64,000 nt of DNA, taken from assembly GCF_002854065.1 (NCBI RefSeq), contig NZ_CP024147.1. The stretch is one strand, 5' to 3'. The position numbers are program-made. Below, piece by piece: positions 18,401-21,400 of the stretch. The number at the start of each line of letters is the position of its first letter. Within the stretch, counting starts at the first letter, position 1. Source of the DNA: Escherichia coli (GTDB lineage Bacteria; Pseudomonadota; Gammaproteobacteria; Enterobacterales; Enterobacteriaceae).

Positions 18401-21400
18401 AACCAATTCCCACCTTAAACCAACTGCTCCGGATAATTCAGATGATCTCCTGTTCAAAAAGCTATCCTCCCCTTCGAAATTAATGACAATTATCGGCGAT
18501 GAAATTCCTCTTATATCTGAAAAACAGTCGCTTTCGAAGGTACTTTTAAATGATGAGAATAATGAACTGAGTGATGGTACAAACTTCTGGGATAAAAATC
18601 GTCAATTAACCACAGATGAAATAGATTGCTATCTTCAGAAGATCGCCGCTAATGCAAAAAATACTCAAGTCAATTATCCTACTGGTCTCTACGTCCCCTA
18701 CTCCACCAGAACTCATCTGGAAGACGCTCTCAATGATAATATTAAGAGCGATCCATCATGGCCGAAAGAAGTCCAGTTATTCCCCATAAATACTGGCGGA
18801 CACTGGATATTAGTTTCGCTACAGAAAATAGTAAATGAAAAAAAATAATACACAACAAATTAAATGCGTCATATTCAACTCATTGTGCGCACTAGGCCAT
18901 GATAAAGAAAATTCACTTAAGCATGTCATTAATAGTTTTAATTCTGAACTCATGGGAGAAATGTCGAATAATAATATAAAAGTTCATTTAACTGAACCCG
19001 AGATAATATTTTTACATGCCGCTCTTCAGCAGCATTTAAGCCAAAGTTGCGGTGCATTTGTGTGCATGGCAGCCCAGGAAGTGATTGAACAAAGGGAAAG
19101 CAATTCTGACAGCGCCCCCTATACGTTATTAAAAAACTATGCTGGCAGATTTAAAAATATTCAGCAGAAGAGCAGTACGAAATTGATTTTCAACATCGAC
19201 AGGTAAACAGAAATTGTTATTTAGATAAATATGGCGATGCAAATATCAATCATTATTATAGAAACTTAGAAATAAAACACTCACAACCCAAAAATAGAGC
19301 ATCAAGCAAAAGAGTAAGTTAACATCATTGTTAATTAATTCGACTAGTCAGTAAATATGCTGACTGGTCGAACATAGTTTACTAAAAAGTCATCACTGAC
19401 TGATGTCAGTCACACCATCCGCCAGTTCAATCTTCGGGTATTTCCAGCGTATCTCGGCACGCGATTGCTGGTCTGTTGATGTAGTGGATTGTTGTTGCTG
19501 ACTTTTCTTACCCTCAGATTTCTGCCCCCTGTCAACTCAATCTGCCAATAAATAACATAATTATATTTTTCCTTATATGAATTCCTTTTTAAAATAGCGA
19601 AGCCACTGTAAAAGATACTTTTTGTATAGATCTAACAACCGTAATAAAACAAACAGTCATAACTCATTATAAATAATGATAAAATAACGTCTTTTATTGA
19701 TAATTTACATATGAAAAAAATTTTCCTTTTGTTATATTATTTCTGTTTTCCCTCCCTCTGATTATTTTTTACCAACCCTGGGTCACTGCATTATCGCCAA
19801 CGCCCCGACACGTAATTCCTGAGCAATGAGAAAAAACAGTTCGTTATCTTACACAAACTGTGCATCCACGTAATGCCGACAATATTGATAATCTGAATAG
19901 GTCCGTAGAGTATATAAAAGAGGTCTTTGTCAGTAGCGGTGCCAGAGTTACCGCGCAGGGCGTCCCCGATTGGCTATTACGACTCTGCGCCTGGAAGCCA
20001 GAATTACCCTTACCCGGCAATGTCCTGGCTTTATCCCGATCGGGGAGACTTTATTGCCGTGGTCGGCAGAATGCAGGATATCAACGCCGTTCGTCAGGTA
20101 AAAGCGGCATTGTTGTCATCTCAGGATTTATCTGTTTATTCTATGAATGCCCCAGGGTTTATTCCCGGTATTGATTTCTCTGATCACCTGAATTATTGGC
20201 AACACGATATTCCCGCCATAATGATTACTGACACCGCTTTTTATCGTAATAAACAATACCACTTGCCCGGTGATACCGCAGACAGATTGAATTATCAGAA
20301 AATGGCTTAGGTAGTGGATGGTGTTATAACTTTGTTATACAACAGTAAATAATAAAAATTTCTCGAGGCGGGTCCAGAAAAAGCGACATGCACATTTTAT
20401 TTTCCCTCATCTGTTTTAAGATGCGAAACATGAAATTCAACGGAGGAAAAATAAATGGGAATGATTGGCTATTTTGCAGAAATTGACTCAGAAAAGATTA
20501 ACCAACTGCTTGAGTCTACTGAAAAACCTTTGATGGATAATATACATGACACGCTTTCAGGATTACGCCGACTGGATATTGATAAACGCTGGGATTTTTT
20601 ACACTTTGGGCTGACAGGCACCTCTGCTTTTGATCCCGCGAAGAATGATCCGCTGAGTCGTGCCGTGCTTGGTGAACACAGCCTCGAAGATGGCATAGAT
20701 GGCTTCCTTGGATTGACCTGGAATCAGGAGTTAGCCGCGACAATCGACCGACTGGAATCACTGGATCGAAATGAACTGCGTAAACAGTTTTCCATTAAGC
20801 GACTCAATGAAATGGAGATTTATCCGGGAGTGACCTTTTCAGAAGAGTTAGAGGGGCAACTCTTTGCCTCGATCATGCTTGATATGGAAAAGCTGATTAG
20901 CGCGTATCGACGTATGCTGCGACAAGGGAATCATGCGCTGACGGTTATTGTTGGGTGATGGTGTCAGGGCTCCAAAAAAAACCGCCGAACATGTCGGCGG
21001 CTTTCTGACTTACAAACTGATAGCTTACATCAGCGGCATTGCTAACCGCACAATGCTAATCAGCGGTTGTGGCCATACACCCAGTACCAGTACCAACAGT
21101 GCAGAGATCAGCACAACGATACCGCCTGCGCTGTACTGCCAGTTTGACGGTGCATCGCGACCCGGTTGTTCCGGTGCGTGCAGGTACAGGCTCACCGCCA
21201 CACGCAGGTAGTAGTAAAGGCCGATTGCCGAACCGACAACCACGGCACCCACCAGCCACCACAGGTGTGCCTGGACACCGACCGCCAGCACGTAGAACTT
21301 ACCGATAAAGCCCAGCGTCATCGGGATACCGGCCAGAGACAGCATCATCACCGTCATCACCGCCGCGAGGATCGGGCGATGCCAGAACAGACCGCGGTAA

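What the first reader, a model, noticed from the sequence alone, without database searches (positions are those of the whole stretch)
19323..20352. Gene-decay scar between elaD and yfbM: no yfbK, and only a frameshifted C-terminal fragment of yfbL
In K-12, as I recall it, elaD is followed by yfbK (about 1.7 kb, minus strand) and then a full-length yfbL. Here elaD is followed by about 500 bp of AT-rich DNA with no ORF over 20 codons (19323-19829), then a fragment with peptidase-like C-terminal sequence whose frame switches from 0 to +1 near 19920-19990 and which carries a TAG at 20308 followed in-frame by 13 more sense codons. A short signal-peptide-like ORF (MKKIFLLLYYFCFPSL-stop, 19711-19761) sits in the same frame as the downstream fragment and may be the original yfbL start. 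Together with the elaD lesions this forms a roughly 2.2-kb block of accessory-gene erosion.
Basis: partly seen in the sequence, partly recalled or inferred. Interest (0 to 1): 0.4.

Follow-up and report, generated by a model that had tools for sequence, protein, structure and literature searches.

The report
Old yfbK/yfbL deletion scar, E. coli
This stretch is an ordinary, already-annotated pair of dead genes in E. coli: yfbK is almost entirely deleted and yfbL is gutted by an internal deletion that about 37% of sequenced E. coli strains share, with a few extra mutations private to this strain.

Summary
The window is E. coli, 100% identical over 17900-21100 to strain CUWW06. There, NCBI's PGAP annotation already marks elaD as "frameshifted" and 19734-20310 as "frameshifted; internal stop".

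- **yfbK:** compared with K-12 and E2865, it is removed by two in-frame deletions (213 + 1350 bp). What remains is its last 12 codons, a 21-nt island and about 125 nt of its 5' end.
- **yfbL:** it is not just a C-terminal fragment. The start codon and codons 1-87 are present, damaged by a 4-bp deletion and a TGA. A 326-bp internal deletion at 19967|19968 removes codons 88-196, the metal-binding half of the M28 domain. Codons 197-323 follow, with CAG>TAG at 20308.
- **How common it is:** the 326-bp junction occurs in 2032 of 5426 complete E. coli genomes, including O157:H7 and O145:H28. Intact yfbK+yfbL occurs in 2509. Strains with yfbK deleted but yfbL intact form an intermediate state.
- **Direction of change:** E. 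albertii has rbn-yfbK-yfbL-yfbM intact, so this is loss, not gain in K-12.
- **Private mutations:** TGA and TAG occur in only 2 of 5426 genomes. The elaD frameshifts were compared in only 10 fetched strains, and were not counted across the collection.

Verdict: routine pseudogene decay at a variable locus, of low interest. One speculative angle: a preprint reports that yfbL loss in K-12 gives phage N4 resistance.

The parts
18102..19322 (+). elaD pseudogene (CE-clan deubiquitinase). It has a +1 A in the A8 run at 18838-18845 and a -1 A in the A5 run at 19153-19157. The 105 codons between them, including the catalytic-Cys motif SQSCGAF, are out of frame with the N-terminal part.
   Evidence: Alignment with nine other elaD alleles, tblastn, and the PGAP 'frameshifted' flag in the identical genome. 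The +1 is seen only in the window, whose 17900-21100 is identical to CUWW06. The -1 is shared with strain 100416.
19339..19372 (.). Imperfect 34-nt palindrome between the convergent elaD and yfbK ends. It is probably a shared terminator hairpin and is conserved in K-12.
   Evidence: blastn reverse self-match at 19339-19372, also found at K-12 L003 4442-4475. It was not folded.
19393..19431 (-). yfbK 3' stub: the last 12 codons (IELADGVTDISQ) plus the stop codon.
   Evidence: tblastn gives 12/12 identity. blastn of 19323-19432 against K-12 gives 96%.
19432..19452 (-). 21-nt island of yfbK (codons 486-492, IRWKYPK) left between the two in-frame deletions of 213 bp and 1350 bp.
   Evidence: Multiple alignment gaps at columns 252-464 and 486-1835. 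tblastn matches IRWKYPQ. The same island is read in frame in the 44-aa remnant ORF of strain F1140.
19453..19576 (-). yfbK 5' stub (about the first 41 codons). The start codon is changed from ATG to ATA, there are small indels, and the yfbK frame is full of stops.
   Evidence: blastn against K-12 6094-6223, alignment, and translation.
19577..19710 (.). Original yfbK-yfbL divergent intergenic (promoter) region, in a haplotype only about 70% identical to that of strains with yfbK intact.
   Evidence: Alignment and identity matrix and per-segment identities.
19711..19967 (+). yfbL 5' part: the ATG and codons 1-87. A 4-bp deletion lies just after 19721, and a TTA>TGA nonsense at 19827-19829 (codon 40) is private to 2 genomes.
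   Evidence: tblastn gives 82% identity over residues 6-87. Alignment. A probe for the TGA matches exactly in only 2 of 5426 genomes.
19967..19968 (+). Junction of the 326-bp internal yfbL deletion. It removes codons 88-196, the N-terminal half of the Peptidase_M28 domain.
   Evidence: blastn and alignment gap at columns 2370-2695 in all eight sequences that carry it. A 60-nt junction probe is covered at 80% or more in 2032 of 5426 genomes. Pfam places the M28 domain at residues 95-317 of intact YfbL. Solved aminopeptidases align to residues 86-203.
19968..20352 (+). yfbL 3' part: codons 197-323, 98% identical to K-12. It carries a private CAG>TAG at 20308-20310 (codon 310). The original TAA is at 20350-20352.
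   Evidence: tblastn gives 124/127 identity. A probe for the TAG matches exactly in only 2 of 5426 genomes. Its Pfam M28 score of 19.6 bits is below the 21.3 cut-off.
20455..20958 (+). yfbM (DUF1877), intact. It marks the downstream boundary of the decayed block.
   Evidence: ORF of 167 aa, Pfam PF08974 at 122 bits, and annotation in the identical genome.

Best explanation
The interval 19323-20352 is what remains of two accessory genes, yfbK (a vWA-domain protein, minus strand) and yfbL (an M28-family metallopeptidase, plus strand). In the ancestral Escherichia arrangement they lie between rbn/elaD and yfbM.

The inferred order of events is:

1. yfbK lost 1563 bp in two in-frame deletions. This state is still seen, with yfbL intact, in strains such as F1140 and WCHEC96200.
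2. On that background, a single 326-bp deletion removed yfbL codons 88-196. This removes the part of the domain that aligns to the metal-binding region of solved M28 aminopeptidases, so no active peptidase can be made. This allele is now in about 37% of complete E. coli genomes, including O157:H7 and O145:H28.
3. Different sublineages then picked up different small indels.
4. In the window's narrow lineage (CUWW06 and 100416), the yfbL 3' end and yfbM look replaced by a K-12-like tract. Two nonsense substitutions (TGA at codon 40, TAG at codon 310) arose in yfbL, and homopolymer frameshifts arose in elaD.

Nothing in the scar appears to be functional. It is non-coding remnant DNA that is decaying.

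The anatomy, the population counts, the shared junctions and the direction of change (loss) are shown by tool results. The order of events, the recombination step and the lack of function are inferred.
For: - **Anatomy:** blastn and tblastn against K-12 define all the pieces. A 14-sequence alignment shows identical gap coordinates for the yfbK deletion in every sequence that lacks yfbK. It also shows an identical 326-bp gap in all eight sequences that carry the yfbL deletion.
- **Intermediate state:** strains with yfbK deleted but yfbL intact exist. Their 44-aa remnant ORF reads straight through both in-frame yfbK deletions.
- **Population counts:** intact yfbK+yfbL in 2509 of 5426 genomes; the 326-bp junction in 2032 of 5426; the TAG and the TGA each in 2 of 5426.
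- **Direction of change:** E. albertii and Escherichia sp. MOD1-EC7003 have rbn-yfbK-yfbL-yfbM intact at the same locus.
- **Loss of function:** the M28 domain spans residues 95-317 of intact YfbL, and the window's fragment scores below the Pfam cut-off. Solved M28 aminopeptidases align to YfbL 86-203, which is almost exactly the deleted part.
- **No conserved remnant ORF:** other strains with the 326-bp deletion carry extra 1-nt and 7-nt deletions in the C-terminal part.
- **Existing annotation:** PGAP already marks both genes as pseudogenes in the identical genome and in O157, O145 and others.
- **Nothing else there:** Rfam finds no RNA family in 19200-20500.
Against: - The yfbK 5' stub plus intergenic region is only about 70% identical to that of yfbK-intact E. 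coli. That is as distant as E. albertii and too much for simple in-place neutral decay within E. coli. The deleted haplotype therefore has an origin I could not identify, such as an old polymorphism or import from an unsampled lineage.
- A frequency of 37% for a null allele may reflect selection rather than neutral loss. A preprint reports that a yfbL deletion in K-12 confers phage N4 resistance.
- Expression of the remnants was not tested.
- The +1 in the elaD A8 run is seen only in this one assembly and could be a sequencing error.
Confidence: 0.93

Rival explanations
1. Adaptive rather than neutral loss. The yfbL-null allele, together with the absence of yfbO, is kept at high frequency because losing this envelope peptidase protects against N4-like phages. 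The scar would then be the footprint of selected gene inactivation that spread by recombination.
For: - A bioRxiv preprint (10.1101/2025.09.29.679331) reports that Keio deletions of yfbL or yfbO in K-12 resist phage N4, and that complementation restores sensitivity.
- A single-origin 326-bp deletion is found in 2032 of 5426 genomes.
- The same flank alleles occur with either intact or deleted centres. For example, the Rbn and YfbM proteins are identical in E2865 (yfbK and yfbL intact) and KS-NP019 (both deleted). This suggests the centre moves by recombination.
- yfbN-O-P is present in only 946 of 5426 genomes.
Against: - No test of selection was done here.
- Frequency alone can also come from inheritance within large clades such as O157:H7, which are over-represented among sequenced genomes.
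- The preprint's result comes from one lab strain and one phage.
- The further decay of the remnant is what neutral loss predicts too.
Confidence: 0.12
2. The remnant still does something. For example, the 127-codon ORF at 19927-20310 (TTG start) might make a truncated C-terminal YfbL polypeptide, or the scar might supply promoter or regulatory sequence for yfbM.
For: - An open frame of 127 codons exists.
- The 3' part is 98-99% identical to K-12.
- Several promoter-like hexamer pairs lie in 20113-20257.
Against: - The ORF is not conserved. O157, OkiPb01695, KS-NP019, Ec-U1 and C21 carry 1-nt deletions, and KS-NP019 and C21 a 7-nt deletion, inside it. The window itself has a premature TAG.
- The high identity to K-12 is explained by a recombination tract that also covers the yfbL-yfbM spacer (100% identical).
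- The promoter-like count is 8, against 4.5 +/- 2.0 in shuffles, which is not significant.
- The fragment lacks the part of the M28 domain that aligns to the metal-binding region of solved aminopeptidases.
Confidence: 0.04
3. The direction of change is the reverse. The short arrangement is ancestral, and K-12-type strains gained yfbK and a longer yfbL by insertion.
For: - Slightly more than half of complete E. coli genomes lack intact yfbK+yfbL.
- The region is AT-rich and looks like accessory DNA.
- No yfbL relative above 48% identity was found outside Escherichia.
Against: - The window keeps both ends of yfbK and an internal 21-nt island, in the right order and orientation.
- It also keeps both ends of yfbL, flanking a gap that is not a multiple of three.
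- E. albertii and a cryptic Escherichia lineage have intact yfbK-yfbL-yfbM at the same site.
Confidence: 0.01
4. The lesions are sequencing or assembly artefacts.
For: The two elaD frameshifts lie in homopolymer runs (A8, A5), a typical long-read error context. The +1 is seen only in the window, whose 17900-21100 is identical to CUWW06.
Against: - The deletions are found in thousands of independent assemblies.
- TGA and TAG are substitutions shared by two independently sequenced strains, one from Thailand and one from The Gambia.
- The elaD -1 is also shared with strain 100416.
Confidence: 0.02

Closest known systems
E. coli K-12 yfbL (b2271), putative M28-family metallopeptidase
   Same: The window's remnant is its ortholog at the same locus. 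The start codon is the same, residues 6-87 are 82% identical and residues 197-323 are 98% identical.
   Different: The window's copy lacks codons 88-196, the N-terminal half of the M28 domain. It also has a 4-bp deletion and two nonsense codons, so it cannot encode the enzyme.
E. coli K-12 yfbK (b2270), vWA / YfbK_C domain protein
   Same: The 3' end (12 codons), a 7-codon island and the 5' end (about 41 codons) are present in the same orientation and position.
   Different: 1563 bp is missing, which includes all of the vWF_A and VWA domains and nearly all of YfbK_C (Pfam positions). The start codon is mutated and the frame is broken.
The yfbL pseudogene annotated in E. coli O157:H7, O145:H28 and many other RefSeq genomes ('M28 family peptidase / hypothetical protein, frameshifted')
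   Same: It has the same yfbK deletion and the same 326-bp yfbL deletion junction, so it is the same allele by descent.
   Different: The window's lineage adds TGA (codon 40) and TAG (codon 310). It lacks the two 1-nt deletions that most strains with this allele carry in the 3' part. Its 3' part is K-12-like.
elaD (CE-clan deubiquitinase) presence/absence variation in E. coli (PMC1847702; PMC12575377)
   Same: elaD is the neighbouring gene, and its variable presence is described in the literature. It is absent from B2 strains (ATCC 25922).
   Different: Here elaD is present but inactivated by two homopolymer frameshifts. The 2025 survey paper does not mention pseudogenes, frameshifts, yfbK or yfbL.

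Membership tests
Peptidase family M28 (functional member) | Pfam PF04389 match above the curated gathering score | tested here: not met
   Intact K-12 YfbL scores 90.6 bits over residues 95-317. The window's C-terminal fragment scores 19.6 bits, below the 21.3 cut-off, and covers only profile positions 132-182 of 193.
Peptidase family M28 (functional member) | The co-catalytic zinc site (His, Asp, Glu, Asp/Glu and His ligands, plus the catalytic Glu), as known from the Aeromonas/Vibrio aminopeptidase structure 1AMP | tested here: not met
   Solved M28 aminopeptidases, including 1AMP, align to YfbL residues 86-203. The 326-bp deletion removes residues 88-196. From general knowledge of M28, not verified residue by residue here, four of the five ligands lie in that stretch. 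Only the region of the last His (FSDHLNYW) survives.
Peptidase family M28 (functional member) | One uninterrupted reading frame from start to stop | tested here: not met
   A 4-bp deletion after 19721, TGA at 19827, a 326-bp deletion (not a multiple of 3) and TAG at 20308.
Pseudogene (decayed ortholog) | Significant similarity to an intact gene at the syntenic position in relatives | tested here: met
   For yfbL, tblastn gives E=5e-84 and 2e-41. Intact orthologs lie between rbn/elaD and yfbM in K-12, E2865, ATCC 25922 and E. albertii.
Pseudogene (decayed ortholog) | Disabling lesions, and no conservation of the remnant reading frames among carriers | tested here: met
   Different sublineages carry different extra indels and stop codons. 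PGAP flags these genes as pseudogenes in every genome with the deletion that was inspected.
Pseudogene (decayed ortholog) | No expression or function of the remnant | not testable with these tools
   No transcriptome or proteome data were available. Rfam found nothing and the promoter-like sites are not in excess.
vWA-domain protein YfbK | Presence of the vWF_A, VWA and YfbK_C domains | tested here: not met
   In K-12 YfbK the domains span residues 102-568. The window keeps only codons of about 1-41, 486-492 and 564-575.
ElaD/SseL CE-clan deubiquitinase (functional member) | The catalytic His and Cys encoded in one continuous frame | tested here: not met
   The +1 at 18838-18845 and the -1 at 19153-19157 put the segment holding the SQSCGAF Cys motif out of frame with the N-terminal 248 codons that hold GGHW. 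The +1 could be a sequencing error in a homopolymer.

The most novel reading that the evidence does not exclude
The dead yfbK/yfbL allele may not be neutral junk. It could be a deeply divergent haplotype: its yfbK 5' stub and promoter region are only about 70% identical to other E. coli, as distant as E. albertii. On this reading it entered or persisted in E. coli and spread by recombination to about 37% of strains, because loss of YfbL (and absence of YfbO) protects against N4-like phages. That would make it a natural resistance-by-loss allele.
Probability: 0.1. Interest if true: 0.35.

Novelty: already known. Interest (0 to 1): 0.1.

Why it matters
It matters little on its own. It is a textbook case of accessory-gene decay at a variable E. 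coli locus, and public annotation already flags it as pseudogenes.

It has three modest uses:

- It gives exact lesion coordinates and an ordered series of states: both genes intact, then yfbK deleted, then yfbK deleted with the 326-bp yfbL deletion, then private nonsense mutations. These could serve as lineage markers.
- It shows that K-12 is not representative at this locus. Only 46% of genomes carry yfbK+yfbL, and only 17% carry yfbN-O-P.
- If the reported N4-resistance phenotype of yfbL loss holds up, about a third of E. coli strains would be natural yfbL nulls. That is relevant to the host range of N4-like phages.

Tried and rejected
- **Rfam scan of 19200-20500 at E<=1:** no hits, so there is no known RNA element in the 'empty' 500 bp.
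- **Promoter/terminator scan:** 8 promoter-like sites against 4.5 +/- 2.0 in shuffles, and 2 terminator-like sites against 0.9 +/- 1.0. This is not informative.
- **Repeats at the deletion endpoints:** I looked for direct repeats or microhomology. None longer than 2-3 nt was seen, so no mechanism such as slippage between repeats or IS-mediated loss can be assigned. No IS remnant is present.
- **Source of the divergent yfbK 5' stub and intergenic haplotype:** I searched among Escherichia outgroups. E. albertii is 71% identical, Escherichia sp. L016 is 76% and MOD1-EC7003 is 70%. None is closer than yfbK-intact E. coli, so the origin is unresolved.
- **An intact-yfbK version of that divergent haplotype in E. 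coli:** none appeared among the sampled rows of the 90-95% identity band. That band was not searched exhaustively.
- **Literature search for yfbK/yfbL** and the 2025 elaD survey: neither describes this deletion.
- **First junction counts were unusable.** The '>=80% coverage' counts from whole-region queries are inflated, because the tool joins pieces across the deletions. I replaced them with a 60-nt junction probe.
- **One Pfam call failed** because of a frame error and was repeated.
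Full report
**1. What is in the sequence.** The window around the finding reads rbn (ends 17914), elaD (18102-19322), the interval in question, yfbM (20455-20958) and nuoN (21025-22482, minus strand). Window 17900-21100 is 100% identical to the E. coli CUWW06 chromosome (NZ_CP182139.1) and 99.8% identical to strain 100416. In CUWW06, PGAP already annotates elaD as a 'frameshifted' pseudogene. 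It also annotates a 'hypothetical protein, frameshifted; internal stop' pseudogene that corresponds to window 19734-20310.

- the ORF MKKIFLLLYYFCFPSL at 19711-19761;
- TAG at 20308-20310, followed by 13 codons and TAA at 20350-20352;
- a frame change inside 19920-19990;
- low GC, 29-36%.

The one slip is the claim of no ORF over 20 codons. ORFs of 32 and 41 codons exist in 19403-19535, but they are not in the yfbK frame.

**2. Anatomy relative to intact loci.** blastn of the window against K-12 gives three collinear blocks:

| Window | K-12 locus L003 | Identity | Content |
|---|---|---|---|
| 17901-19432 | 3013-4535 | 95.6% | through elaD and 40 nt into the 3' end of yfbK |
| 19455-19967 | 6094-6621 | 80.7% | first ~130 nt of yfbK, the intergenic region, first 261 nt of yfbL |
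| 19968-20959 | 6948-7939 | 99.6% | rest of yfbL, and yfbM |

tblastn shows YfbL residues 6-87 (82% identical, with one in-frame TGA) and residues 197-323 (124/127 identical, with one TAG). For YfbK it finds only IELADGVTDISQ (residues 564-575) directly abutting IRWKYPK (residues 486-492).

A 14-sequence alignment resolves the yfbK loss into two in-frame deletions, 213 bp and 1350 bp relative to E2865. They are separated by a 21-nt island at 19432-19452. The yfbL loss is a single 326-bp deletion at 19967|19968.

In strain F1140, the residual 44-aa ORF reads ...SRAA-IRWKYPQ-IELAGGVTDISQ. This confirms that the island is real and that both deletions are in frame. In the window, the yfbK stub is damaged further: the start codon is ATG>ATA, there are small indels, and stops occur throughout the frame.

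yfbL in the window carries four lesions:

- a 4-bp deletion just after 19721;
- TTA>TGA at 19827-19829 (codon 40);
- the 326-bp deletion;
- CAG>TAG at 20308 (codon 310).

However, the 82 codons between them are out of frame.

**3. Consequence for function.** Pfam places Peptidase_M28 at residues 95-317 of intact YfbL (90.6 bits). The window's C-terminal piece reaches only 19.6 bits, below the 21.3 cut-off. Solved M28 aminopeptidases (1AMP, 2EK8 and others) align to YfbL 86-203, which is almost exactly the deleted 88-196. By general knowledge of the M28 family, that stretch holds four of the five zinc ligands and the catalytic Glu. No active peptidase can therefore be encoded. All of YfbK's vWF_A and VWA domains and nearly all of YfbK_C (residues 102-568) are gone.

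**4. elaD.** Compared with intact alleles (O145, O157, OkiPb01695, E2865, K-12), the window has a +1 A in an A-run (18838-18845, A8 against A7). It also has a -1 A in another run (19153-19157, A5 against A6). The two cancel, so the last ~68 codons return to frame. The segment between them, which holds the SQSCGAF Cys motif, is out of frame with the N-terminal 248 codons.

The -1 is shared with strain 100416. The +1 is seen only in this genome, so it could be a homopolymer sequencing error. Independent elaD frameshifts occur in KS-NP019 and WCHEC96200.

**5. Population picture.** The collection holds 5426 complete E. coli genomes.

| Feature | Genomes |
|---|---|
| K-12 yfbK+yfbL region covered at 80% or more | 2509 (46%) |
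| 60-nt probe across the 326-bp junction, covered at 80% or more | 2032 (37%) |
| TAG at 20308, exact match | 2 (CUWW06, 100416) |
| TGA at 19827, exact match | 2 (CUWW06, 100416) |
| yfbN-yfbO-yfbP | 946 (17%) |

The carriers of the 326-bp junction include O157:H7 and O145:H28. The remaining genomes include two further states. In one, yfbK is deleted but yfbL is intact (F1140, WCHEC96200). In the other, yfbK and almost all of elaD are missing but yfbL is kept (K56-43-un). B2 strains such as ATCC 25922 have yfbK-yfbL but no elaD. This agrees with the literature on elaD distribution (PMC12575377).

The big deletions are therefore old and widespread. The two nonsense codons are private to two genomes, and the elaD frameshifts appear private among the strains aligned.

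**6. Direction and order of events.** Both ends of yfbK plus an internal island are retained, and both ends of yfbL flank a gap that is not a multiple of three. This shows deletion here rather than insertion in K-12.

Outgroups agree. E. albertii and Escherichia sp. MOD1-EC7003 have rbn-yfbK-yfbL-yfbM intact at this locus, without elaD. Another Escherichia lineage (L016) has an independent single 1468-bp yfbK deletion with different endpoints, so yfbK loss is recurrent.

Every sequence that lacks yfbK shares the same yfbK junctions, and only some of these carry the 326-bp yfbL deletion. The inferred order is therefore the yfbK deletion first, then the yfbL deletion, then lineage-specific small lesions.

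The window's yfbL 3' part and the yfbL-yfbM spacer are 99-100% K-12-like. They lack the two 1-nt deletions found in O157, OkiPb01695, KS-NP019, Ec-U1 and C21; O145 carries only the first of them. I interpret this as a recombination tract whose left end lies just right of the deletion junction.

**7. What remains unexplained.** The yfbK 5' stub plus the yfbK-yfbL intergenic region (19453-19710) is only about 70% identical to the same segment of yfbK-intact E. coli from phylogroups A, B1 and B2. Those strains are 92-95% identical to one another in this segment. The window's version is as far from them as E. albertii is. No outgroup found is closer. The deleted haplotype is thus either an old polymorphism or an import from an unsampled lineage. 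Neutral decay in place within E. coli cannot account for it.

**8. Function and rival readings.** Nothing suggests that the scar is functional:

- Rfam finds no RNA family.
- Promoter-like and terminator-like sites are not in excess.
- Remnant ORFs are not conserved among carriers of the deletion.

The only reading that adds interest is adaptive loss. A 2025 preprint reports that deleting yfbL or yfbO in K-12 makes it resistant to phage N4, and that complementation restores sensitivity. Natural yfbL nulls in 37% of strains, and absence of yfbO in 83%, could therefore be selected. I did not test this and give it about 10%.

**9. Verdict.** The feature is already annotated as pseudogenes in RefSeq. 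Novelty: already known. Interest: low.

Noticed in passing
window 20959-21024 (between yfbM and nuoN): K-12 carries a 2.56-kb segment here with yfbN, yfbO and yfbP. The window goes almost straight from yfbM to nuoN. The K-12 segment is present in only 946 of 5426 complete E. coli genomes, so K-12 is the minority state. yfbN also follows yfbM in Escherichia sp. MOD1-EC7003.
   Followed up: partly
window 19453-19710: The yfbK 5' stub and the yfbK-yfbL intergenic region are only about 70% identical to the same segment in yfbK-intact E. coli. Those strains are 92-95% identical to one another here. The window's version is as distant as E. albertii, and no closer source was found among the Escherichia outgroups.
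   Followed up: partly
window 19968-20460: The yfbL 3' part and the spacer before yfbM are 99-100% K-12-like. They lack the two 1-nt deletions found in O157:H7, OkiPb01695, KS-NP019, Ec-U1 and C21; O145 keeps only the first of them. This looks like a recombination tract that begins within about 30 nt of the deletion junction.
   Followed up: partly
window 18838-18845 and 19153-19157 (elaD): Both elaD frameshifts are single-A changes in homopolymer runs. The +1 (A8) is absent even from the 99.8%-identical strain 100416, so it may be a sequencing error. Independent elaD frameshifts occur in KS-NP019 and WCHEC96200.
   Followed up: partly
L016:5478-6003 (strain labelled 'Escherichia coli' SCPM-O-B-8794, a separate species representative): It has an independent single 1468-bp yfbK deletion. 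The left endpoint differs from the window's, and the right endpoint is only 11 nt away from the window's. elaD is absent. yfbK loss is therefore recurrent in the genus.
   Followed up: partly
L015-L044: Outside Escherichia, the closest YfbL relatives found among species-representative genomes are only 32-48% identical (Opitutales, Nitrospirae, Thiothrix, Acinetobacter). None came from other Enterobacteriaceae. This suggests yfbL was acquired horizontally by Escherichia, but the pattern-based search has limited sensitivity.
   Followed up: no
window 19339-19372: A 34-nt imperfect palindrome lies between the convergent elaD and yfbK ends and is conserved in K-12. It is probably a shared terminator. 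It was not folded.
   Followed up: no
L003:4426-6360 (K-12 yfbK region): A genomic SELEX study lists an LldR binding peak at K-12 position 2,383,166, in a table row labelled elaD / yfbK / yfbL (PMC10272880). By the K-12 coordinates, that position falls within elaD rather than yfbK. Whether the site is retained in the window was not checked.
   Followed up: no
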